DNA of 64,000 bases from NCBI GenBank assembly GCA_019057385.1, contig JAHQJS010000006.1, positions 224,001 to 288,000 on the forward strand. Direction: 5' to 3'. Under the pieces are notes generated by a model, which saw only the letters and a program-made list of their open reading frames with translations, was not told the origin of the DNA and did not search any database. The stretch comes from Candidatus Borrarchaeum weybense (GTDB taxonomy: Archaea > Asgardarchaeota > Sifarchaeia > Borrarchaeales > Borrarchaeaceae). Both the position numbers and the translations under genes were made by a program. Below, in pieces: positions 41,801 through 51,639 of this stretch. Position 1 is the first letter of the stretch. Each line of letters begins with the position of its first letter.

Positions 41801-42092
41801 AACCCATCCAGTTATCTTATTTCATAATTAGAGAAATCTTATCTGACTCAAAATGTGCTCAGTATATTCATAAAGGTTCCGTCTTTTCTCGCTCTTATTT
41901 TTGAGGACAGCTTGAAAAAAGATATATTAGTTAGACTTGAAAATGTCTTTGTAACATCCTTATATGGCACATCAAGGAATTTTCTTCTTGAAGTATAAAA
42001 AGTCCTCTAAGAGATAAGATCTTATGTAGTAGATTCCATAGATGTTATTGATCTTGAATAACAACTACACAGATCATATGAGAGATGCTCAA

Positions 42093-42971
42093 ATGCGTAT
42101 AGGTATTATAACAAACCTTGAAAAGAGTTTTGAAGTTCAGGAATTAGTTAATTCATTGCAGAACAGACAAATTACACCTTTGATCTTTTCGTTTGATCAA
42201 CTTGCTGCAAATATTGGCTTTGAGAGAGACACTATTCAACTGAAGGACATAAATCTCTTGGATGAATTGGATGCACTAATCGTTAGAGGACCTCCTATGG
42301 GTACGTTAGAACAAATAACTGCTAAATTGGATATTTTATACAAATTAGAAGGTCTAGGAATTACGATTATCAATTCCCCTAAAGCAATTGAAGTGTCTGG
42401 GGATAAATTTCTTTCAGGAATTCGACTTGCAGAAGTTGGTTTACCAGTACCTAAAAGTATAGTAACTGAGACTCTAGATGCCGCACTCGATGGCTTCTCA
42501 AATTTGGGGGAAGACGTAATTGTAAAACCAATTATTGGGAGTAGAGGGCGAGGAGTTGTAAGAATAACAGATCGGGAAATTGCTTGGCGTATATTTGATA
42601 CGTTAATTCGCTCTAATCAAGTCATTTTCATGCAAGAATACCTTCCTCATGGATTACAAGATATTAGAACTCTTGTTGTTGGCAATACGGTAACTGCTGC
42701 AATGTATCGGTTATCTAATAACTGGAAATCTAATATAAGTGAAGGTGCTATACCAAAACCTTGCAAGATTGATGAATCATTGGAACAACTGAGTATAGAT
42801 GCTTCTAAAACTCTTGGGTGTGAACTGGCTGGAATCGATTTAGTTGAAGTAAAAAACACAAGATATGTTATAGAGGTAAATCCAAGTCCTGGATGGAAGG
42901 GATTACAAAGCGTTACCGAACATTCGATTGCTGATGCGATCATTAACAAAATATTAACAAAGATAGCGTGA
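42093..42971 (+). CDS. RimK-family ATP-grasp glutamate ligase (MptN/CofF-like), paralog 1
   Basis: GTLEQI, INSPKAIE...DK, VKPIIGSRGRG, QEYL, DIR, WKSNI and EVNPSPGW. The ORF track starts at 42042. Confidence 0.85.
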   Translation: MRIGIITNLEKSFEVQELVNSLQNRQITPLIFSFDQLAANIGFERDTIQLKDINLLDELDALIVRGPPMGTLEQITAKLDILYKLEGLGITIINSPKAIEVSGDKFLSGIRLAEVGLPVPKSIVTETLDAALDGFSNLGEDVIVKPIIGSRGRGVVRITDREIAWRIFDTLIRSNQVIFMQEYLPHGLQDIRTLVVGNTVTAAMYRLSNNWKSNISEGAIPKPCKIDESLEQLSIDASKTLGCELAGIDLVEVKNTRYVIEVNPSPGWKGLQSVTEHSIADAIINKILTKIA

Positions 42972-43101
42972 TTTAACTCAATCCTTGAAATAAATTGGGA
43001 GCAAAGGAGGAATTGGTAACATCATTTCTTGATATTGCTAGATTTTTTCCTCTTAAAATAATATGAATCTTCTAATGGTTTGTTAAAACTGATTAGAGAG
43101 T

Positions 43102-44007
43102 GTGAATTTGAAGATAGGAGTTGCAATTTCGTCATCAGGACAGACACTTCGTTGGCATGAATTGCAGTTAAAACGTGCATTGGATAAGAAAAATATCTCT
43201 ACAGTTTTCTTCCCAATAAAAGATACAATAGCAAATTATAGTAGATCCACTTTAGGTGTTCATTATAACAACTCTAATTTAATTAATGAACTAAGCGGCG
43301 TCCTAGTTAGGGGGCCAGGAATCGGCGTTTTGGAACAAATCTATTTTCGAATGAATGTGGTTAGACTCTTTGAGCACTCAGGTACTTATGTCATTAATTC
43401 GGCAAAAGCAATTGAGCAAGCAAGTGACAAATTATTTACGTCTATGGCTTTAGACGGGGCAAATATTTCAGTACCTCCAACCATGGTGGCACAGAAAATC
43501 GATGACGCAATGAATTTCTTTAAAAGCTATAAAGATATAGTAATAAAGCCGTTGTTTGGTTCAATGGGCCAGGGGATTACTCGCATAACAGATGAGGACA
43601 CAGCATATTTAATATTTGAAACTTTAGAGCAATTTGATTTGATCATTTATCTCCAGAAATTTATTCCACATGGAAATCGAGATATTAGAGCCTTGGTGAT
43701 AGGAGATCAAGTTATTGCAGCTATGTATCGAGTTGCAGAAAACAATGGTTGGAAAACGAATGTAAGTCTAGGAGCTACTCCTGAAGTGTGTGAGCTGAAT
43801 GAGAAGTTAAAAAAAATCTGCGTTAGAGCTGCTCAAATAGCAGGTTGCGAAATCGCAGGAATTGATATAATGATCCCCGAAAATGAACAGGATACTGATT
43901 ACTATCTACTTGAAGTAAATGCATGTCCTGCATGGGAAGGTCTGCAGAAAACTACAACATTAAACATAGCTGAAGTTATTGTAGATTATATAGCAACCAG
44001 AGTATAA
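43102..44007 (+). CDS. RimK-family ATP-grasp glutamate ligase (MptN/CofF-like), paralog 2
   Basis: GVLEQIYFR, IKPLFGSMGQG, QKFI, RDIR, WKTNVSLG and EVNACPAW. Confidence 0.85.
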   Translation: MNLKIGVAISSSGQTLRWHELQLKRALDKKNISTVFFPIKDTIANYSRSTLGVHYNNSNLINELSGVLVRGPGIGVLEQIYFRMNVVRLFEHSGTYVINSAKAIEQASDKLFTSMALDGANISVPPTMVAQKIDDAMNFFKSYKDIVIKPLFGSMGQGITRITDEDTAYLIFETLEQFDLIIYLQKFIPHGNRDIRALVIGDQVIAAMYRVAENNGWKTNVSLGATPEVCELNEKLKKICVRAAQIAGCEIAGIDIMIPENEQDTDYYLLEVNACPAWEGLQKTTTLNIAEVIVDYIATRV

Positions 44008-44035
44008 CGAAGAGCACATTGAAGGACAAATCTCG

Positions 44036-44671
44036 ATGAATACCACAATAGCGATTTTATCCGGAGGAAAATCTCATAGACTTAAGTCAGTTGTCCCAGA
44101 CAAAGGTTTACTATTGCTGAACAACAAACCAATGATTTTATGGGTGATAGAGGTTATTCAAGAACTCTCTAATAACATTCTAGTCATCGTAAGTTCAGAA
44201 AGTCAAAAAGAAAAATATCTTGAAGTTATAGAAAATCTTGCAGAAATGGTGATAGACAAAAGAGAGTCTATTAGGAGTTCCTTGCTGGGTGCACACGCAG
44301 CATTCATGCATGCAAGTGGGAAATACACCATTTTATTACCTAACGATACGCCTTTATTAAATCGAGATGCCTTACTCCTATTAATAGAATTATGTGAAGA
44401 CTATGATGTGGTATTACCCCGATGGCCAAACGGATTTATCGAGCCCTTACATGCCATTTACAGGACAGAAATTGCAAGAAAAAGATCAACGGAACTGATA
44501 CAGAAAAACCAATATAAACTAGATGGTCTGCTACAAAATGCAAACGTTTTGTATATCAATACTGAGATTTTCAAACAATTTGACCCTCAACTTAATATGT
44601 TTTTCAACGTAAATACCCCAGGTGATCTGAAGAAACTAAAAGGTTTAGTCAAAAAGCCTCAAAGGAGATAA
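44036..44671 (+). CDS. mobA: MobA-like nucleotidyltransferase
   Basis: ILSGGKSHR, DKGL, DTP, EPLHAIY and FNVNTPGDL. Confidence 0.8.
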   Translation: MNTTIAILSGGKSHRLKSVVPDKGLLLLNNKPMILWVIEVIQELSNNILVIVSSESQKEKYLEVIENLAEMVIDKRESIRSSLLGAHAAFMHASGKYTILLPNDTPLLNRDALLLLIELCEDYDVVLPRWPNGFIEPLHAIYRTEIARKRSTELIQKNQYKLDGLLQNANVLYINTEIFKQFDPQLNMFFNVNTPGDLKKLKGLVKKPQRR

Positions 44672-44677
44672 GATGAA

Positions 44678-45445
44678 TTGGAACTCCCGAAAATTGAAAT
44701 TTTTCCAATCCCCGGTATACCTATCATACGAGAAGGGGATAATACTGGAGAAATAATATGCCAATGTATAAACAACACGCGGATTGCTTTACAAGAAGAG
44801 GATATAATAGTTATAGCCCATGCGATAGTTTCAAGAGCGGAAGGAAGATTGGTAGATTTAAGGACGGTCATACCTTCTGAGTTTGCACAAACGATTTCAG
44901 ATCAATGCGATAAAGACCCAAGACATGTAGAAGTGATTCTCAGTCAAGCAAAGTCAATCGTACGGATGAAAGATGGAATATTAATAGTTGAATCAAAAAC
45001 ACCAGCAGGATGGGTAATGGCAAACGCAGGAGTAGATCAATCTAATTCTCTTGGAGAAAACTTTGCTCTTCTTTTACCAGAGAATCCAGATCGTTCCGCA
45101 GAAACAATTAGAAAAAAAATACAAGAAGAATATGGGGTTGAAGTAGCAGTAATTATTACAGATACTTTTGGCAGAGCACTGCGTTCAGCTGCAGTTAATG
45201 TAGCTATTGGGACATCAGGGATTAAACCGATCCTAGACTTAAGAGGAGTGAAAGATCTCTTCGGCTATACATTGACTAGCACTTGCGTTGCGATCGCAGA
45301 TGAACTCGCTTCAGCTGCAGAGTTAATTAGTGGACAATCAAATGAGGGGTTTCCTGTTATTGTAATTCGTGGATACAAATATCAAAAGGGAACAGAATCC
45401 GCATTGTTGCTTGCTAGGCCAAGAGAAAACGCTCTCTTTTGGTGA
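44678..45445 (+). CDS. cofE: Coenzyme F420-0:L-glutamate ligase
   Basis: GIPIIREGD, IVSRAEGR, ANAGVDQSN, TDTFGR, ADELASAA and PVIVIRG. Confidence 0.92.
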   Translation: MELPKIEIFPIPGIPIIREGDNTGEIICQCINNTRIALQEEDIIVIAHAIVSRAEGRLVDLRTVIPSEFAQTISDQCDKDPRHVEVILSQAKSIVRMKDGILIVESKTPAGWVMANAGVDQSNSLGENFALLLPENPDRSAETIRKKIQEEYGVEVAVIITDTFGRALRSAAVNVAIGTSGIKPILDLRGVKDLFGYTLTSTCVAIADELASAAELISGQSNEGFPVIVIRGYKYQKGTESALLLARPRENALFW

Positions 45446-45515
45446 CTGCGAAATATGATAAAAAAGATTATAACTATCATCTAAAATTCAAAAATATCCG
45501 TAAAAGTTGATATAA

Positions 45516-47045
45516 ATGAAGGGTGACAACACCGAACTAAGAAAATGGCCTCCAGTTTCGGGTGATTGGGTACTAGGTAATCCAAACGCTCATATCGCTA
45601 TTATGACTTGCGGATCATATGAGTTGCCAAGTCATCTTGTAAACTCAAATAAAGATTATGTCGCAATTGCAGGTTTTTGTGAAGTTGAGAATGAGGGTAT
45701 AGCAAAAATATTACAAAATATATGCTCTAACGCATCTATTCGTGTACTAGTCGTCGCCGGCGAGAGAGTAAAAGGACATGAGCCCGGACAGAGTATTATT
45801 AGCCTCTATGAGAACGGCATTGATGATAATTTTACTATTATTGGAAGTAACGGTACCATACCCACGCTATTGCCCCGATATTTCAAAAATATAGATCCTT
45901 TCATATGGGTTTCACGCTTTCAACAGCAGATTGTGAATATTTTAGATTTGCGCAATGAAACAGATCTTAACAAAATTTCAGAAGAAATCGCTAAACTTGG
46001 AGAACAAGCATTTGAAACATTCCCCGATGAACCTCTCTTTCCTCCTGTGCAAAAGGTAAATTACGATTTTGGAACGTTGGCGAGTTCTGAATATGATATC
46101 ACTGAGATTGATGTAAAGAAAACTGAAAATATGCTTTTAGGAAATCCGCTCTTTTTTTCTAATACACAGCTACTGGTCTACGATATAGGTGGCACAAAGA
46201 TTGGAGGACAACGAGGAGAATACCCATGTGTCTTAGCTGGAACGATTTTTTATAAGGGTGATAAGACGGTGGAAAATTCCGATCGAGGATTATTTGACAA
46301 AAAACTAGCCGCTGATTACATTTATCAACAGGAACTAAAATCATTTGAATTTGAAATCCCATCAATGGTGCATGTCGTTGGTGAAACACCAATGGCTATT
46401 GAAAACTATCTATTGTTTGCTATAGAGCGTACAGACTCTCCGATTATAGTAGATTCCCCAGACGCTGCGACAAGGATTGCTGCAGTTCAGTTATCAAAAG
46501 ATATGGGGTTCGACAACCGAATAATTTACAATTCTATCTTTGTCCAAGATGAAGCGGAAATAAAGACGCTTACCGAAATTGGAGGCGTTGAATATGCAAT
46601 AATTTTACCATACGATCTCACTGTTGAAGAAAGGGTCGTAAAGACAAATGATCTCATTAATTTTGCAAAAGATGCTGTCAAGAAACCAATTTTGGATCCG
46701 GGTGTCCCTAAACTTGGTGAAGGGGGTTTTAGTGCACTCCATGCTGCATGGACCTTAAAAGATATTTACGGGTTCCCAATGGCTATTGGAATTCACAACT
46801 TACATTCAAGATTGCCAAAAAAGGAAAAAGGATTATCAGCAAAATCATTAGATTTTGGATTTAATTATGCGTTTCCATCAAATTTTGGGATAGATATTAA
46901 CATGTATGGACCGATAAAAAGGGCTGATAAAATCTTTCCAATGATTGCGGCTATTGAAACTATGATCGCTGATGAACTGATTAAAATCTACGATATATCA
47001 CCTAGACCTCCACATCCATATTATAAACTTGGTCTGGAAGGATGA
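45516..47045 (+). CDS. Soluble MtrA-MtrH fusion (corrinoid protein plus methyl-tetrahydropterin methyltransferase)
   Basis: MtrA part: WPPVSGD, ENEGIAK, SN..IR and VKGHEPGQS (Co-ligand His88). MtrH part: DIGGTKIGGQRGEYPCVLAGTIFY, IVDS, IYNSI, ILDPG, GIHN and MYGPI. No TM helix. Confidence 0.9.
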   Translation: MKGDNTELRKWPPVSGDWVLGNPNAHIAIMTCGSYELPSHLVNSNKDYVAIAGFCEVENEGIAKILQNICSNASIRVLVVAGERVKGHEPGQSIISLYENGIDDNFTIIGSNGTIPTLLPRYFKNIDPFIWVSRFQQQIVNILDLRNETDLNKISEEIAKLGEQAFETFPDEPLFPPVQKVNYDFGTLASSEYDITEIDVKKTENMLLGNPLFFSNTQLLVYDIGGTKIGGQRGEYPCVLAGTIFYKGDKTVENSDRGLFDKKLAADYIYQQELKSFEFEIPSMVHVVGETPMAIENYLLFAIERTDSPIIVDSPDAATRIAAVQLSKDMGFDNRIIYNSIFVQDEAEIKTLTEIGGVEYAIILPYDLTVEERVVKTNDLINFAKDAVKKPILDPGVPKLGEGGFSALHAAWTLKDIYGFPMAIGIHNLHSRLPKKEKGLSAKSLDFGFNYAFPSNFGIDINMYGPIKRADKIFPMIAAIETMIADELIKIYDISPRPPHPYYKLGLEG

Positions 47046-47048
47046 ATA

Positions 47049-48347
47049 GTGCTTAAATGTGCAGAAAACATTGAGGATCTCTATGGTCCGTATATCATTA
47101 GAGGAAGATCAATCGATTTAGTTTGGAGAACATATTTGTCAAAAATCATTGAACAAGGATTATCTGTAATCACAGAAGATAAACAACAGAAAACTAAGGA
47201 GACCTTATGTTGCATATCCCATTTGACTGACTGGAAAAGTGGGCGAATAGTTCCTAGAAATTATGTTGGATTATCACCAGAAATTATTAGAACACAATAC
47301 CTACCACAGTATCTAAGCGGCGAAAAGGGAGATCATACATACACCTACGGTTGGTGTGTAAGAAAAAGATTTGGATTTGACCAGACCAAACTGGCAGTCG
47401 AGCAATTAAAAACTTCAAGAACAGCATTCGCGCAACTTTGGAATCCTATAGAAGATCTAAAAAGTGCTAATCCACCTTGTGTTGACATAGCACTGTATTA
47501 CAATGATTTTTCAACAAAAATGCTCCACATGATTGCCTATATCCGTAGCAATGATATGGGACGTGCCCACTCTGATGATGTTGCAGGTCTCTACGAAACA
47601 TTTCTCCGTTATGACGGCGCCTTTAATTTATATGGAGCCCAGAAAGCTGCAGGTACATTAACAACCATTTCAGGTTCTGCTCATATATATGATACCTCAA
47701 TTCCTGAACTACAAGAAATTTTGGTTGGTTCTGTTACTTTAGCGAATGAAAATCAGCCTTTAAATACCAAAACTTTACCAGGGCCTATTTTGTTTCAATC
47801 AAGAACCTATCAAAGTTTCCTTTCAGAATTAGAAGTCAAATTCAAAAAATACTGCAGAGAAAATAATGGATCATTTGATCTCTTTTTTACTGTAAGATTT
47901 GATGATTTAGCTTCTTCTGATTTTGATTCGAGTCAAACATTAGAAAAATTAAATGACCAGATTAAAGATCCTTCGCTTGAAAGTACGATTCGAAATTATC
48001 AAGGAGTAACAGATACTGGGAATGCATCAAGTATTGATCAAATCGAGTTTATTGCAAAAAAACTTAGAAATGCACCGAGAAGTCGACGGATGGTTATTGC
48101 GCCTAATAATCCCTCCAAAAAAATCTATTCTTTGAATCCTATAATAGTTCAATTTCTTTATCGACTTGAAAAATTGTATACAATTGCATTATTCTCCAAT
48201 TACAGCCTTATAGATATTCCTAAGGCAGTAATTATGGTTAGAAATCTCCAAAATGAAGTCCTCAAAGGCACAGATATCGCTGCTGGACCTATAGTGTTTC
48301 TATTTATGCCTGGTACCCATAAAACCAAGCATTTCTCTCTTTCGTGA
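47049..48347 (+). CDS. Thymidylate-synthase-like protein with two tandem ThyA domains (one catalytic, one degenerate)
   Basis: N-domain: YTYG, DQ, WNP, PPC144, R166SND and AHIY. C-domain: DQIEFIAKKL...SRR and QF, without the Cys. Confidence 0.85.
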   Translation: MLKCAENIEDLYGPYIIRGRSIDLVWRTYLSKIIEQGLSVITEDKQQKTKETLCCISHLTDWKSGRIVPRNYVGLSPEIIRTQYLPQYLSGEKGDHTYTYGWCVRKRFGFDQTKLAVEQLKTSRTAFAQLWNPIEDLKSANPPCVDIALYYNDFSTKMLHMIAYIRSNDMGRAHSDDVAGLYETFLRYDGAFNLYGAQKAAGTLTTISGSAHIYDTSIPELQEILVGSVTLANENQPLNTKTLPGPILFQSRTYQSFLSELEVKFKKYCRENNGSFDLFFTVRFDDLASSDFDSSQTLEKLNDQIKDPSLESTIRNYQGVTDTGNASSIDQIEFIAKKLRNAPRSRRMVIAPNNPSKKIYSLNPIIVQFLYRLEKLYTIALFSNYSLIDIPKAVIMVRNLQNEVLKGTDIAAGPIVFLFMPGTHKTKHFSLS

Positions 48348-48397
48348 ATTATATGCATTCTGAAAAAGAATTTTTGATGAATGACATCTATTTGGTG

Positions 48398-49561
48398 TCA
48401 TCCTTTGAGAAACAAAATCTTAAGCTCATTTTCGTGGAATTTAGCCTTTTCGATCTCCTTGTCCCGAATAATTGTGGGGAGATATAAAACACGCTTGTAT
48501 TTGCCTACACGAATAACCAGTGTGTTACGATCGTGCTCGATTGATAATTCACCTTTTTCGCTGAAAGGCAGTTTTATAACCAGTTCATAGTTTCCATTGT
48601 CTTGTTGCACAAGTTGAAACGGTCTTTCTGTAGTTAGAGTTTCAGTCGGATCTTTATCATGATAGAGCGCATCTGCCACTTTTCCAAGAAGCGTGGTACC
48701 TATGATTTCTTCCTGGAACAGTGGAACTGGAAGAATTGGAAGTGGATCAAATGCTTCATCGATCTGATTCATATAATCGGCTTGCTGTTGTTTCCAGCGC
48801 ACAAAAAATGGATCACTAACCTCCTCTGGAAGTAATCTATTGACTACAACTCCGTCAACGAGAAAACCAAACAAGTTCATAAAGGTTAATGTGCGCATCG
48901 ATTCTAGTAATACCATTTTTTCTGGATTAACCACCAACTTAACCGTTGTGACCGATGGATCTACAAGCAGTTCTCGAACTTCCATTGCTTCTTCAATCAA
49001 AGAATCTGTAACTTTTTGCACATCTGCACCAGGTAATGAGACTGGTAAAAGCATCCGAAGTGGCTTTAATTCCTCAAGTATTATTTTTTCGAGCTCCACC
49101 AGATTTCGACCAAGTGAACCGATGACCTCTGGAAAACTCATTAAACGAAGTGTATGTCCTGTAGGCGCCGTATCCAATACTATAACATCGTACTCGTTTA
49201 TGTACTGACGGATAGTTAAAAGACTAAATAACTCATCCATTCCAGGAATTACTACCATCTCACTCGCTAAAGCTTGGTCAAACCCTCTCGCAGTAAATAA
49301 TTGTGTAAGATACTTGAGTACAATCTCCCATTTTTCCTCCATCAGGCGCTGGGAATCAATTTCCAGACCATATAAATTCTCGCTTATCTTTTTCGGGGAG
49401 TGACCACCTAAATTAATACCTATTGCGTCACTTAAACTATGAGCTGGATCTGTGCTGAGCATTAAAGTTTTTTTTCCATTCTCTGCACACCGTAAACCTG
49501 TAGCTGCCGACACAGTTGTCTTTCCGGTGCCACCTTTTCCTGTAAACACTAAAATTCGCAT
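48398..49561 (-). CDS. ArsA-family ATPase with C-terminal HSP20-like domain (Get3d-type)
   Basis: TGKGGTGKTT, STDPAHSL, PGMDEL, DTAPTG and NPEKMV; C-terminal LVIRVGKYKRVLYLP...LKILF. Confidence 0.88.
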   Translation of the reverse strand: MRILVFTGKGGTGKTTVSAATGLRCAENGKKTLMLSTDPAHSLSDAIGINLGGHSPKKISENLYGLEIDSQRLMEEKWEIVLKYLTQLFTARGFDQALASEMVVIPGMDELFSLLTIRQYINEYDVIVLDTAPTGHTLRLMSFPEVIGSLGRNLVELEKIILEELKPLRMLLPVSLPGADVQKVTDSLIEEAMEVRELLVDPSVTTVKLVVNPEKMVLLESMRTLTFMNLFGFLVDGVVVNRLLPEEVSDPFFVRWKQQQADYMNQIDEAFDPLPILPVPLFQEEIIGTTLLGKVADALYHDKDPTETLTTERPFQLVQQDNGNYELVIKLPFSEKGELSIEHDRNTLVIRVGKYKRVLYLPTIIRDKEIEKAKFHENELKILFLKG

Positions 49562-49669: not shown

Positions 49670-50281
49670 TTATTCAACACTTATCTCAAAAGATTTCGAA
49701 TTGTCGCCAGAATTCTTTTTTGGGTTACTTAGAGTATTGTTGACAGCCTCTAACTCACTTTCTAGAATTTTTTTATACTGCATGAGCACCTCTACAAGCT
49801 GATCTGGCTTTACAATTTGAATTAACCATTCTCTTAATTGTTTACCTCTATCTTCCATAAGCTGTATAACATCTTTTAGTCTGTTTTCTACATATGTTTG
49901 GTAAGGGCTAAAATATTCGTCGATAAAACTAACAAATTTGCCTAGTAGGTCGATTTCTTGATCAAAACGTTCTGCAATAATCTTTAGAACACCTTTTCCC
50001 TTGTCCGTTAATTGATACATCTTTTTTGTGCCACCCTCTCCACTTTCAGTGATATTCTGAATTAACTTATCATTTTCTAATCTGGAGAGTGTAGGATATA
50101 TTGTGCCGCTTTTTGGCTCCCATGCGCCACCAAACTTCCCTTTTAGATCTTGTATAATATCTGAACCTGCCATCGGCTTTTCTTGTAGCAGCACTAATAT
50201 TAAAAATTCAACTGGGCTCACTTTTCGTTCAAGTACATTTCTGAAAAGCCCTCTACCTAATCCTCGACCAAGCCAAAACAT
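49670..50281 (-). CDS. PadR-family transcriptional regulator
   Basis: LILVLL...PM.G, WEPKSGTIYPTLSRLE and KKMYQLTDKG. Confidence 0.9.
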   Translation of the reverse strand: MFWLGRGLGRGLFRNVLERKVSPVEFLILVLLQEKPMAGSDIIQDLKGKFGGAWEPKSGTIYPTLSRLENDKLIQNITESGEGGTKKMYQLTDKGKGVLKIIAERFDQEIDLLGKFVSFIDEYFSPYQTYVENRLKDVIQLMEDRGKQLREWLIQIVKPDQLVEVLMQYKKILESELEAVNNTLSNPKKNSGDNSKSFEISVE

Positions 50282-51009: not shown

Positions 51010-51639
51010 TCACTTTTTATGATGTTTCCCAAAAAAATTGATAGAAATGTCTTGAATGATCTCCTGTGATTTTTGTATAGACTGAGTTGTATCAATAACT
51101 GAGTATTCTTCTTCTTTCGCCCTTTCAAGGAAATTATCACGTACTTTGCTAAGAAACTCTCTATTTTCAAATGATTCTAGTTTTTCTCTTCTATTTAGGC
51201 GCGCCATAGCATCCTTTGGACTTATATCAAGGATAAAAGTAATGTCGGGCCAAACTATGCCTTTGTTAATAGCCTTGATCCACTCTCTTGTTAATTCTTG
51301 CGCGGATTGATATGCTAATGAAGATTCAATATATCGAGTTGTAATTACGATTTGTCCTTGTTTAAGGGCGGGCTCTATAACTTCCTTCACATGTTGTATT
51401 CTATCTGCAGCAAATAATAGTGCAAACATCTCAGGCTGCTTAATTTCGAACTTGTCTTGCAATGCTTCTTTTATTAAGCGGCCAACGGCACCCTTAGTAG
51501 GTTCTCTAGTAAGAATTACACTAAATCCTTGTTCAACCAAAAACTCATATAGAAGTCTACTATGAGTAGACGTTCCAGAACCGTCGATTCCTTCAAATGC
51601 GATCAGAAAACCTCTCTGATTTGATTGTGGGTTCGTCAT
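51010..51639 (-). CDS. tmk: Thymidylate (dTMP) kinase
   Basis: IAFEGIDGSGTST, TREP, LLFAADR, RYIESSLAYQ and PD. Confidence 0.92.
   Translation of the reverse strand: MTNPQSNQRGFLIAFEGIDGSGTSTHSRLLYEFLVEQGFSVILTREPTKGAVGRLIKEALQDKFEIKQPEMFALLFAADRIQHVKEVIEPALKQGQIVITTRYIESSLAYQSAQELTREWIKAINKGIVWPDITFILDISPKDAMARLNRREKLESFENREFLSKVRDNFLERAKEEEYSVIDTTQSIQKSQEIIQDISINFFGKHHKK

What the first reader, a model, noticed from the sequence alone, without database searches (positions are those of the whole stretch)
45516..48347. Candidate cobamide-dependent pyrimidine C5-methylation system: soluble MtrA-MtrH fusion coupled to a ThyA-fold enzyme
Seen: one ORF fuses a corrinoid-binding MtrA domain (His88 in VKGHEPGQS, no membrane anchor) to MtrH. 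It ends 3 nt before a ThyA-like gene and closes an operon of pterin/F420 glutamyl ligases; tmk lies about 2.7 kb away; no mtrBCDEFG or mcr is in the window. Known: MtrH moves CH3 from methyl-H4MPT to the MtrA cobamide. ThyA activates pyrimidine C5 by Cys attack at C6, and C5 methyltransferases use the same activation with a CH3+ donor. Inference: methyl-H4MPT/THF -> MtrH -> methyl-Co(III) on MtrA -> C5 of the bound nucleotide. This would be a B12-dependent route to 5-methylpyrimidine nucleotides, distinct from ThyA and ThyX, with no dihydropterin to re-reduce. Alternative: the module methylates a cofactor precursor. I cannot verify whether this pairing has been described.
Basis: partly seen in the sequence, partly recalled or inferred. 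Interest (0 to 1): 0.92.

Follow-up and report, generated by a model that had tools for sequence, protein, structure and literature searches.

The report
B12 methyl-carrier gene paired with thymidylate synthase
In this Asgard archaeon and four related families, the only recognisable thymine-making enzyme is an odd single-chain thymidylate-synthase relative that always follows, and is predicted to bind, a soluble vitamin-B12-type methyl-carrier protein, which points to an untested B12-dependent way of making a DNA base.

Summary
Window 45516-47045 encodes a soluble MtrA-MtrH fusion that keeps the cobamide-ligand histidine (H88). Three bases later, 47049-48347 encodes a ThyA-like protein.

In 201 genomes of the phylum, 18 carry this ThyA-like gene. 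All 18 have the mtrAH fusion directly upstream on the same strand, while the flanking genes differ. None of the 18 has ThyX. The own genome also lacks another ThyA, thymidine kinase, DHFR and MtrE.

The ThyA-like protein is a tandem of two ThyA folds. Domain 1 has the catalytic Cys144. Domain 2 keeps only the Arg-Arg phosphate clamp. An invariant Asp replaces the uracil-selecting Asn177.

Co-folding supports a complex (score 0.89, best control 0.00) through the MtrH domain, not the MtrA domain.

My best reading (about 0.5) is a corrinoid relay: methyl-pterin, to MtrH, to methyl-cobamide on MtrA, to C5 of a Cys-activated deoxypyrimidine, ending as dTMP. Whether the acceptor is dUMP or dCMP is open. 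Nothing biochemical is shown.

The glutamyl-ligase neighbours and tmk are lineage-specific. The papers I could search describe the fusion but leave its methyl acceptor uncertain. This scan has noted the same module before in other genomes.

The parts
45516..47045 (+). mtrAH fusion gene (509 aa): a soluble corrinoid-protein domain fused to a methyl-pterin:corrinoid methyltransferase domain.
   Evidence: Pfam MtrA E 1e-33 and MtrH E 5.5e-55. PDB matches to MtrH 8Z9U (E 6e-36), MtgA 6SJ8 (E 3e-33) and MtrA 5L8X (E 9e-27). No transmembrane segment.
45540..46040 (+). MtrA domain (residues 9-175). The cobamide-ligand His88 codon is at 45777-45779.
   Evidence: Aligns with the Gly-His of 5L8X and 5LAA. 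G87, H88, P90, G91 and Q92 are invariant in 17 orthologues from five families.
46041..46172 (+). Linker of about 44 residues between the MtrA and MtrH domains. I infer that it is a flexible tether.
   Evidence: It lies between the two Pfam matches and is poorly conserved in alignment A3. Flexibility is an inference.
46173..46973 (+). MtrH domain (residues 220-486). It is predicted to dock the ThyA-like protein.
   Evidence: Pfam MtrH. Confident interface residues are 223-356 and 497-499.
47036..47048 (+). Junction between the two genes: GGAAGGA, the TGA stop, a 3-nt spacer, then the GTG start. The layout is compatible with coupled translation.
   Evidence: Sequence read. Orthologous pairs have gaps from -14 to +50 nt, and four loci show a 4-bp overlap.
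47049..47753 (+). ThyA-like domain 1 (residues 1-235), the catalytic domain. It carries C144 (47478-47480), R166-S167-x-D169, Y100, H212, Y214, and D177 (47577-47579) at the Asn177 position.
   Evidence: Alignment to solved thymidylate synthases. Invariant columns. VIA-align Z 21.6 to dCMP hydroxylase 9IQU, 20.5 to MilA and about 18.8 to ThyA.
47754..48347 (+). ThyA-like domain 2 (residues 236-432). It has a degenerate ThyA fold without the Cys and keeps an invariant S345-R346-R347 (R-R codons at 48084-48089).
   Evidence: NCBIfam thymidylate synthase match at 323-365 (E 6.8e-8). Folded alone: pLDDT 85.7. The top seven PDB matches are all ThyA superfamily, Z 12.6-15.3, and the next match is 5.8.
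42042..45445 (+). Context only: two MptN/CofF-like ATP-grasp ligases, a MobA/CofC-like nucleotidyltransferase and CofE. They are upstream on the same strand, but the adjacency is lineage-specific.
   Evidence: These genes are not present next to the pair in L008-L011.
51010..51639 (-). Context only: thymidylate kinase, on the opposite strand. It is not a conserved neighbour.
   Evidence: Pfam Thymidylate_kin E 1.3e-51. Absent from L008-L011.

Best explanation
The two genes encode one soluble enzyme complex that makes the thymine methyl group by a corrinoid relay.

Step 1 is known chemistry for the family and is inferred here. The MtrH domain takes the methyl group of methyl-tetrahydromethanopterin (or methyl-THF) and puts it on Co(I) of the cobamide held His-on by the tethered MtrA domain.

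Step 2 is inferred. The single-chain ThyA-like protein is anchored on the MtrH barrel. It binds a 2'-deoxypyrimidine 5'-monophosphate in its one composite active site. Domain 1 supplies Cys144, Arg166, Ser167, Asp169, Asp177, His212 and Tyr214. Domain 2 supplies the Arg346-Arg347 phosphate clamp.

Step 3 is inferred. Cys144 adds to C6. The resulting C5 nucleophile takes CH3+ from methyl-Co(III), giving Co(I). Loss of the C5 proton and of Cys then yields the 5-methyl nucleotide. No dihydropterin is formed.

The end product is dTMP, because these genomes have no other thymidylate synthase. Whether the acceptor is dUMP (direct) or dCMP (followed by, or coupled to, deamination) is open. The invariant Asp177 favours dCMP. 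The absence of a ComEB-type deaminase in four of the five families argues against a separate deamination step.
For: (1) Strict linkage. In 201 genomes of the phylum, 18 have the tandem ThyA-like gene (families f1, f2, f8, f13, f18). All 18 have an MtrA-bearing ORF of about 500-530 aa directly upstream on the same strand. All 19 fetched loci show the pair, with gaps from -14 to +50 nt. The flanking genes differ between lineages. Conversely, 18 of the 19 long MtrA-bearing ORFs of that size sit next to the tandem gene.

(2) Sole candidate. ThyX was found in 0 of those 18 genomes against 98 of 201 overall. The own genome (100% complete by marker genes) has one ThyA-family hit, no ThyX and no thymidine kinase.

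(3) No other home for MtrAH. MtrE was found over its cut-off in 0 of 201 genomes, and this is the only MtrA in the genome.

(4) Cobamide competence. The G-H-x-P-G-Q motif is invariant and aligns with the His ligand region of 5L8X and 5LAA.

(5) Predicted complex. Score 0.89, best of 3 controls 0.00. That mark was reached by 58 of 80 solved complexes and 2 of 110 mismatched pairs; these counts hold only roughly because my own alignments were used. The runs agree in at least 91% of contacts, and the partner's pLDDT is at least 88. The invariant G245-P246 in the ThyA-like inter-domain linker lies in the interface.

(6) Supplies. The own genome has Mch, a MetF-like reductase, CobS and a RACo-type corrinoid activase.

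(7) Independent domain fusions. More than 100 sequence clusters of proteins join an MtrA-like N-domain to this type of ThyA. One also carries a dCMP deaminase domain, and several sit beside tmk.

(8) The fold accepts other co-substrates. The best structural match is a flavin-dependent dCMP hydroxylase (9IQU and 9IQC, Z 21.6 and 21.2).
Against: - No biochemical or expression data exist.
- The confident interface involves the MtrH domain only, so the MtrA domain is not placed near Cys144.
- Residues used in methylene-folate chemistry are kept: Asp169, and a Glu that is probably the Glu58 equivalent. The canonical mechanism is therefore not excluded.
- In the related fusion family, all but a handful of the N-domains lack the His ligand, and none of seven inspected loci has an MtrH neighbour. 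An MtrA-fold partner of ThyA can evidently work without cobamide-mediated methyl transfer.
- Asp177 predicts a cytosine substrate, but a ComEB-type dCMP deaminase was not found in families f2, f8, f13 and f18 (0 of 15 genomes). A route from 5-methyl-dCMP to dTMP is therefore unexplained there.
- Attack of a ThyA-type C5 carbanion on methyl-cobamide has no precedent that I know of.
Confidence: 0.5

Rival explanations
1. Conventional thymidylate synthase. The tandem ThyA-like protein makes dTMP from dUMP and methylene-H4MPT by the ordinary ThyA mechanism. The MtrAH protein is bound or co-located for another reason, such as sharing the pterin pool, regulating C1 flux, or acting as a scaffold.
For: The ThyA catalytic set is kept: Cys144, Arg166, Ser167, Asp169, His212, Tyr214 and Tyr100. 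Related short archaeal ThyA proteins and the fusion forms work without an adjacent MtrH. The gene is annotated as thymidylate synthase in public records. Published work treats Asgard ThyA as ordinary archaeal ThyA (PMC9931769).
Against: This reading does not explain the 18 of 18 adjacency across five families with changing flanks. It does not explain why the MtrAH fusion is restricted to genomes with this gene, the invariant cobamide-ligand motif, or the predicted complex. It also does not explain the clade-specific Asn177 to Asp change: 39 tandem sequences have Asp, while 130 fusion forms and 31 short forms have Asn. In Lactobacillus casei thymidylate synthase, from my own knowledge, that change abolishes the preference for dUMP.
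Confidence: 0.25
2. Cytosine-nucleotide modifying enzyme that is not a thymidylate synthase. The ThyA-like protein methylates or hydroxymethylates dCMP or CMP for modified DNA, RNA or a metabolite. Thymidylate would come from an unrecognised enzyme or from salvage.
For: The invariant Asp at the Asn177 position. The three best structural matches are enzymes that act on cytosine nucleotides: phage dCMP hydroxylase 9IQU and 9IQC (Z 21.6 and 21.2) and CMP hydroxymethylase MilA (Z 20.5), against about 18.8 for ThyA.
Against: It would leave 18 genomes, three of them closed or nearly closed, with no ThyA, ThyX or (in the own genome) thymidine kinase. The gene sits among housekeeping information-processing genes in other lineages.
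Confidence: 0.08
3. The published reading. The MtrAH fusion is a soluble methyl-H4MPT:coenzyme M (or other thiol) methyltransferase used in non-methanogenic methylotrophy, and its position next to thyA is incidental.
For: This is proposed for Sifarchaeia and Jordarchaeia (PMC9723677) and for Atabeyarchaeia and Freyarchaeia (PMC11291895). The genome holds four further stand-alone MtrH paralogues, two of them next to a RACo activase, so it does run methyl-corrinoid metabolism.
Against: The authors themselves call the acceptor uncertain. MtrE, thought to hold the coenzyme M site in Mtr (my own knowledge), is not found in the phylum. The fusion occurs only together with the tandem ThyA-like gene, among housekeeping genes rather than methyltransferase clusters, and is predicted to bind it.
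Confidence: 0.05

Closest known systems
Corrinoid-dependent three-component methyltransferase systems: MtrH plus MtrA of the methanogen Mtr complex, MtgA plus its corrinoid protein, and the modules of methionine synthase MetH
   Same: A pterin-binding TIM-barrel methyltransferase (the MtrH domain, E 6e-36 to 8Z9U and 3e-33 to MtgA 6SJ8) is combined with a His-on corrinoid carrier domain (E 1e-27 to 5L8X). The two are tethered on one chain, as in MetH.
   Different: The presumed second methyltransferase is a ThyA-fold enzyme and the acceptor would be a ring carbon of a nucleotide, not a thiol or a pterin nitrogen. There is no membrane anchor and no MtrB-G.
Homodimeric thymidylate synthase ThyA (PF00303), especially the short archaeal type (NCBIfam TIGR03283)
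   Same: The fold is shared (Z about 18.8). So are the catalytic Cys in a Pro-Cys motif, the R-S-x-D motif, the H-x-Y motif, and an Arg-Arg clamp contributed by a second ThyA fold.
   Different: It is one chain with two specialised domains and one active site. Asp replaces Asn177, and Arg172 and an acidic residue at 176 lie in the stretch that lines the folate site in E. coli ThyA. It scores below the equivalog cut-off (113.8 against 174.55 bits) and is obligately paired with MtrAH.
Cytosine-specific ThyA-fold enzymes: T4 dCMP hydroxymethylase, CMP hydroxymethylase MilA, and phage HY126 dCMP hydroxylase AfhB
   Same: These are the best structural matches (9IQU Z 21.6, MilA Z 20.5). An acidic residue sits at the Asn177 position; that these enzymes have Asp there is my own knowledge for T4 dCMP hydroxymethylase (Asp179). 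AfhB shows that the fold can use a non-folate co-substrate.
   Different: None of them is known to work with a corrinoid protein. They are homodimers, and their products are hydroxymethyl or hydroxy nucleotides, not precursors of the cell's thymidylate.
Uncharacterised fusion proteins with an MtrA-like domain, ThyA and DUF4346 (PF14251). I saw them in a Woesearchaeota genome, in Nostocales cyanobacteria, in some Asgard genomes, and on unnamed metagenome contigs
   Same: They have the same ThyA subfamily and an MtrA-fold partner, and they sit in a nucleotide-metabolism context: tmk, dCTP deaminase genes, and in one case a fused dCMP deaminase domain.
   Different: They are fused rather than adjacent, they have no MtrH, and the His ligand is usually deleted. 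Asn177 is kept in 130 of 130. They have a C-terminal DUF4346 instead of a second ThyA domain, and one coexists with ThyX.
TsrM and SAM-dependent pyrimidine C5 methyltransferases (a chemical analogy from my own knowledge, not tested here)
   Same: TsrM transfers a methyl group from methylcobalamin to a carbon nucleophile by a polar mechanism. The C5 methyltransferases use Cys addition at C6 to make C5 attack a CH3+ donor.
   Different: The folds are unrelated, and neither uses methyl-pterin as the ultimate donor for a free nucleotide.

Membership tests
Thymidylate synthase ThyA superfamily (PF00303) | ThyA alpha/beta fold | tested here: met
   Domain 1: Foldseek E 3e-12 to 4e-12 and VIA-align Z 18-21.6. 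Domain 2 folded alone: Z 12.6-15.3 to seven ThyA-superfamily chains, next match 5.8.
Thymidylate synthase ThyA superfamily (PF00303) | Catalytic Cys in a Pro-Cys motif, plus R-S-x-D and H-x-Y | tested here: met
   C144, R166, S167, D169, H212 and Y214 are aligned to solved thymidylate synthases and are invariant in the clade. They are present in domain 1 only.
Thymidylate synthase ThyA superfamily (PF00303) | Asn177 (E. coli numbering), which selects uracil | tested here: not met
   Asp177 is invariant in 39 tandem sequences. Asn is found in 130 fusion forms and 31 short forms.
Thymidylate synthase ThyA superfamily (PF00303) | Homodimer with an Arg-Arg pair donated by the partner subunit | tested here: not met
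   Domain 1 has S-R-T in place of the Arg-Arg pair. The invariant S345-R346-R347 lies in domain 2 of the same chain. This makes a pseudo-heterodimer; that the two Arg reach the active site is inferred.
Thymidylate synthase ThyA superfamily (PF00303) | Uses 5,10-methylene-pterin as both C1 donor and reductant | not testable with these tools
   This needs an enzyme assay. DHFR family PF00186 was not found in the own genome, but that is common in archaea.
Archaeal short ThyA (NCBIfam TIGR03283, equivalog) | Score over the curated cut-off | tested here: not met
   113.8 bits against a cut-off of 174.55.
MtrA corrinoid protein (PF04208) | Domain match and the His lower ligand of the cobamide | tested here: met
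   E 1e-33. H88 aligns with the Gly-His of 5L8X and 5LAA and is invariant. Cobamide binding itself is not shown.
MtrA corrinoid protein (PF04208) | C-terminal membrane anchor and membership of the MtrA-H complex | tested here: not met
   No hydrophobic segment. MtrE was found over its cut-off in 0 of 201 genomes of the phylum. The score is below the NCBIfam mtrA equivalog cut-off (119 against 249).
MtrH / MtgA methyl-pterin:corrinoid methyltransferase (PF02007) | Domain match over the whole TIM barrel | tested here: met
   E 5.5e-55, profile positions 4-289 of 299. The score is below the equivalog cut-offs for mtrH (179 against 271) and MtgA (141 against 550). Pterin specificity is unknown.
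Three-component corrinoid methyltransferase system | A second methyltransferase of a known type (MtaA/MtbA-like, MtrE, or the MetH homocysteine domain) that unloads the corrinoid | tested here: not met
   The conserved partner gene is a ThyA-fold protein in 19 of 19 loci, and there is no MtrE. I did not search the genome for MtaA/MtbA-type genes.
Three-component corrinoid methyltransferase system | A reductive activase for the corrinoid | tested here: met
   A RACo-type protein (Fer2, RACo linker, middle and C-terminal domains) is encoded at G000 contig 7 near 858-859.4 kb, next to stand-alone MtrH paralogues. A link to this particular module is not shown.
MtrA-like / ThyA / DUF4346 fusion family | Single chain with an N-terminal MtrA-like domain, ThyA with Asn177, and a C-terminal PF14251 domain | tested here: not met
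   Here the genes are separate, there is no PF14251 match, the residue is Asp177, and a second ThyA domain is present instead. In the tree the Asgard tandem clade is separate, with SH-aLRT 99.

The most novel reading that the evidence does not exclude
The module is a third class of thymidylate synthesis that starts from dCMP. Asp177 activates cytosine, and Cys144 adds at C6. C5 takes the methyl group from methyl-cobamide. The 5,6-dihydrocytosine intermediate is prone to hydrolysis and is deaminated on the enzyme, so that dCMP goes to dTMP in one active site. This would replace both dCMP deaminase and a folate-oxidising thymidylate synthase, and would explain why four of the five module-bearing families lack a ComEB-type deaminase.
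Probability: 0.12. Interest if true: 0.95.

Novelty: new variant of a known kind. Interest (0 to 1): 0.85.

Why it matters
Only two ways of making thymidylate de novo are known, ThyA and ThyX, and both use methylene-folate. A route that uses a preformed methyl group delivered by a cobamide would be a third.

It would tie DNA synthesis in several Asgard lineages to vitamin B12 and to the methyl branch of the Wood-Ljungdahl pathway.

It would give an acceptor for the MtrAH fusion, whose function published work leaves open, and would revise the metabolic models that use it for methylotrophy.

It would show the ThyA fold acting as the unloading enzyme of a corrinoid system.

The single-chain pseudo-dimer with one active site is also a clean natural example of subunit specialisation.

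The proposal can be tested directly with two recombinant proteins.

Tried and rejected
- Expression: no RNA holder was listed for window 45400-48400. Twenty metagenome runs hold part or all of the DNA. I did not lay reads.
- Literature: searches for DUF4346 and for MJ0757 returned no papers. A search for 'dCMP hydroxylase' found one unrelated preprint. No paper combines MtrA, MtrH, fusion and thymidylate synthase.
- A word-based homologue search with domain 1 alone added almost nothing.
- Two-step route, dCMP to 5-methyl-dCMP to dTMP by a ComEB-type deaminase: the own family has that deaminase, but families f2, f8, f13 and f18 do not with this query (0 of 15). I do not adopt this as the general route.
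- I looked for an MtrH gene beside MtrA-like/ThyA fusion proteins, including three that keep the His ligand. None was found in seven loci.
- A sister tandem protein, P0082, has no MtrAH neighbour.
I therefore could not measure distances between the Arg-Arg pair and Cys144, or between the cobamide site and Cys144.
- The careful tree search did not finish in the time allowed, so I used the quick tree.
- I rejected a catabolic 'thymine demethylase' reading on chemical grounds: the C-CH3 bond is unactivated.


Full report
**What is in the window**

ORF 45516-47045 (+) encodes 509 residues. Pfam finds MtrA at residues 9-175 (E 1e-33) and MtrH at 220-486 (E 5.5e-55). The best solved relatives are MtrH 8Z9U, the methyl-THF enzyme MtgA 6SJ8, and MtrA 5L8X and 5LAA. 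H88 aligns with the Gly-His of the solved MtrA chains. No 19-residue window approaches membrane hydrophobicity.

The stop codon is followed after 3 nt by a GTG start at 47049, and a purine-rich GGAAGGA lies just upstream of it. ORF 47049-48347 encodes 432 residues. It matches Pfam Thymidylat_synt and the NCBIfam archaeal thymidylate synthase model, the latter below its cut-off.

Upstream on the same strand are two MptN/CofF-like ATP-grasp ligases, a MobA/CofC-like transferase and CofE. tmk lies 2.66 kb downstream on the other strand. The observation therefore stands.

**The ThyA-like protein is a single-chain pseudo-dimer**

Domain 1 (residues 1-235) aligns with solved thymidylate synthases. 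C144 falls on the catalytic Cys, R166-S167-x-D169 on the R-S-x-D motif, and H212 and Y214 on the H-x-Y motif. All of these are invariant in the clade.

Domain 1 lacks the Arg-Arg pair that a ThyA subunit normally donates to its partner's active site. An invariant S345-R346-R347 sits in domain 2 instead. Domain 2 has no Cys and no R-S-x-D.

The whole protein folds with pLDDT 85.8 and pTM 0.90. Domain 2 folded alone (pLDDT 85.7) matches seven ThyA-superfamily chains at Z 12.6-15.3, and the next match is at 5.8. One composite active site is the natural reading, but that is an inference, because I could not read the model coordinates.

**A cytosine-type specificity residue**

The position of E. 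coli Asn177 is Asp177 here. I tabulated 209 relatives. All 39 tandem Asgard sequences have Asp. All 130 MtrA-like/ThyA fusion proteins and 31 short archaeal ThyA proteins have Asn.

The tandem Asp group is one clade, with SH-aLRT 99 on a long stem in a quick tree.

The best structural matches of domain 1 are a phage dCMP hydroxylase (9IQU and 9IQC, Z 21.6 and 21.2) and the CMP hydroxymethylase MilA (Z 20.5). They rank ahead of ThyA at about 18.8. From established work on L. casei thymidylate synthase N229D and T4 dCMP hydroxymethylase Asp179 (my own knowledge), Asp at this position favours cytosine.

**The pairing is conserved and exclusive**

Four distant homologues (Atabeyarchaeia-1, a Freyarchaeia-type contig, a 'Lokiarchaeia'-labelled MAG and Njordarchaeia) all have an MtrA+MtrH fusion gene immediately upstream. 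In those loci the pair sits among ribosomal, exosome and tRNA-synthetase genes rather than cofactor genes.

In a fixed sample of 201 genomes of the phylum, 18 have the tandem gene, spread over five families. All 18 have an MtrA-bearing ORF of about 500-530 residues directly upstream on the same strand. The two genomes of those families that lack one gene lack both, and they are 69% and 83% complete.

In 19 fetched loci the gap between the genes runs from -14 to +50 nt, with 4-bp overlaps in one family. Of the long MtrA-bearing ORFs of that size in the sample, only one (G025) is not next to a tandem ThyA-like gene.

ThyX is found in 98 of 201 genomes but in none of the 18. The Pfam ThyA model finds only the tandem gene in 16 of the 18. 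Two draft genomes have an extra short hit.

The own genome is 100% complete by markers with 7% contamination. It has no ThyX, no thymidine kinase and no DHFR-family gene. MtrE is not found over its cut-off in any of the 201 genomes, so there is no membrane Mtr complex for the fusion to join.

**Predicted complex**

I co-folded the two proteins with paired 17-row alignments. The scores were 0.89, 0.86 and 0.89, and the best of 3 controls was 0.00. That mark was reached by 58 of 80 solved complexes and 2 of 110 mismatched pairs; the counts hold only roughly because my own alignments were used. The runs agree in at least 91% of contacts, and the partner's pLDDT is at least 88. The model supports binding but does not show it.

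The confident interface uses MtrH-domain residues 223-356 and 497-499. On the ThyA-like protein it uses residues 15-32, 58-61, the inter-domain linker 225-250, and 264 and 268. The invariant G245-P246 of the linker is in the interface.

The MtrH segments involved all precede the barrel's beta-strands, for example just before the strands that hold D313-S314 and Y338-N339-S340. I therefore infer that the ThyA-like protein sits on the face of the barrel opposite the pterin site. That would leave the pterin site free for the tethered MtrA domain.

The MtrA domain itself is not placed, so the key geometric question remains open: can the cobamide reach Cys144?

**What the genome supplies**

The own genome encodes Mch, a MetF-like methylene-pterin reductase, a Mer-like protein below its cut-off, CobS, and a RACo-type corrinoid activase beside stand-alone MtrH paralogues. 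It also has a ComEB-like dCMP deaminase and a Dcd/dUTPase-family protein.

The ComEB-like deaminase is found in 147 of 201 genomes. It is found in none of the 15 sampled genomes of the other four families that carry the module. A separate deamination of 5-methyl-dCMP is therefore not a general solution. The acceptor could be dUMP despite Asp177, or deamination could happen on the enzyme or at the triphosphate level. I leave this open.

**Related fusion proteins cut both ways**

The nearest relatives outside the clade are more than 100 clusters of proteins of about 450-560 residues. Each has an N-terminal MtrA-like domain, this type of ThyA, and a C-terminal DUF4346. I saw them in a Woesearchaeota genome, in Nostocales cyanobacteria, on unnamed metagenome contigs, and in two Asgard genomes of the sample. 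One carries a dCMP deaminase domain and is followed by tmk. Another lies next to ThyX and tmk.

This is independent evidence that an MtrA fold and this ThyA type work together in thymidylate metabolism. However, most of these N-domains have a two-residue deletion where the His ligand should be. None of the seven loci I inspected has an MtrH neighbour.

One fusion protein that keeps the His ligand lies between CdhD, RACo and a CooC-like gene on one side and cofE on the other. That echoes the cofE neighbour in this window. An MtrA-fold partner of ThyA therefore does not by itself prove cobamide chemistry. The case here rests on the retained His motif, the fused MtrH and the exclusivity.

**Comparison with the literature**

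The MtrAH fusion of Asgard archaea is already described. Sun et al. 2021 proposed a methyl-H4MPT:coenzyme M transferase (PMC9723677). Valentin-Alvarado et al. 2024 call it a novel fusion whose methyl acceptor 'remains uncertain' (PMC11291895). Filee et al. 2023 surveyed Asgard ThyA and ThyX without mentioning Mtr, a tandem form or the Asp residue (PMC9931769). No searchable paper links MtrA or MtrH with thymidylate synthase.

Earlier notes of this scan describe the same module in at least nine other genomes. They are unchecked AI notes. I tested the same points independently here and reached the same broad reading.

**Verdict**

The most likely explanation (about 0.5) is a soluble corrinoid relay that methylates C5 of a Cys-activated deoxypyrimidine to make the cell's thymidylate.

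The main rival (about 0.25) is an ordinary methylene-pterin thymidylate synthase that merely associates with MtrAH.

Every catalytic step is inferred. The decisive experiments are simple and are listed under next steps.

Noticed in passing
L013:6001-10484 (Woesearchaeota contig JACPIM010000020): An MtrA-like/ThyA/DUF4346 fusion gene is followed by a 214-aa protein with no family match, an unusually long ThyX-family protein (540 aa), thymidylate kinase, glutaredoxin and a HAD hydrolase. The fusion form therefore coexists with ThyX in one nucleotide-metabolism cluster.
   Followed up: partly
L067:689-10156 and L068 (metagenome contigs): A 426-aa MtrA/ThyA fusion that keeps the Gly-His cobamide motif lies between CdhD, a RACo corrinoid activase and a CooC-like ATPase on one side, and cofE, CitG and a luciferase-like oxidoreductase on the other. 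The cofE adjacency recurs in this window.
   Followed up: partly
L015:5395-7972 (contig CAYOFM010000031): A 648-aa protein joins an MtrA-like domain, ThyA, DUF4346 and a dCMP deaminase domain. It is followed by a thymidylate/deoxynucleoside kinase and DeoC, next to secE-nusG-rplK.
   Followed up: no
L014:6001-10849 (Anabaena sp. PCC 7108): Nostocales cyanobacteria carry a form of about 500 aa of the same ThyA/DUF4346 family. Its N-domain is only weakly MtrA-like. The gene lies next to recA and near two dCTP-deaminase-family genes.
   Followed up: no
G000 contig 7, about 858-864 kb (L003, L004, L006), and contig 6, 451365-452207 (L005): The genome has four stand-alone MtrH paralogues. They score higher against the Pfam MtrH model than the fusion does (260-312 bits against 188.5 in the same genome search). 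Two sit directly beside a RACo-type corrinoid activase.
   Followed up: partly
Family f7 genomes of the phylum sample (for example G148 contig 36, G102 contig 1): A short ThyA of 210-220 aa and a canonical stand-alone MtrA of about 232 aa lie roughly 20 kb apart on the same contig in many genomes. This is conserved synteny without adjacency.
   Followed up: no
Family f10 genomes of the phylum sample (for example G158 contig 109, 31242-31622): 38 of 41 genomes carry a ThyA-family ORF of about 335-350 aa whose Pfam match covers only the C-terminal half. The N-terminal part of about 130 residues is unexplained. The protein query P0002 does not detect this ORF.
   Followed up: no
L071:5001-6251 (P0082) and P0096: A second, very divergent lineage of tandem ThyA-like proteins (about 415 aa) has no recorded Pfam hit. 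It sits upstream of ribosomal protein S19 and L22 genes and has no MtrAH neighbour.
   Followed up: partly
G025 contig 140, 2335-2673: This is the only long (542-aa) MtrA-bearing ORF of that size in the phylum sample that is not next to a tandem ThyA-like gene. That genome has ThyX. I did not examine the rest of the ORF.
   Followed up: no
window 48398-49561 (-) and 49670-50281 (-): Directly downstream and convergent with the pair are an ArsA/Get3-type ATPase with a C-terminal HSP20-like domain and a PadR-family regulator.
   Followed up: no
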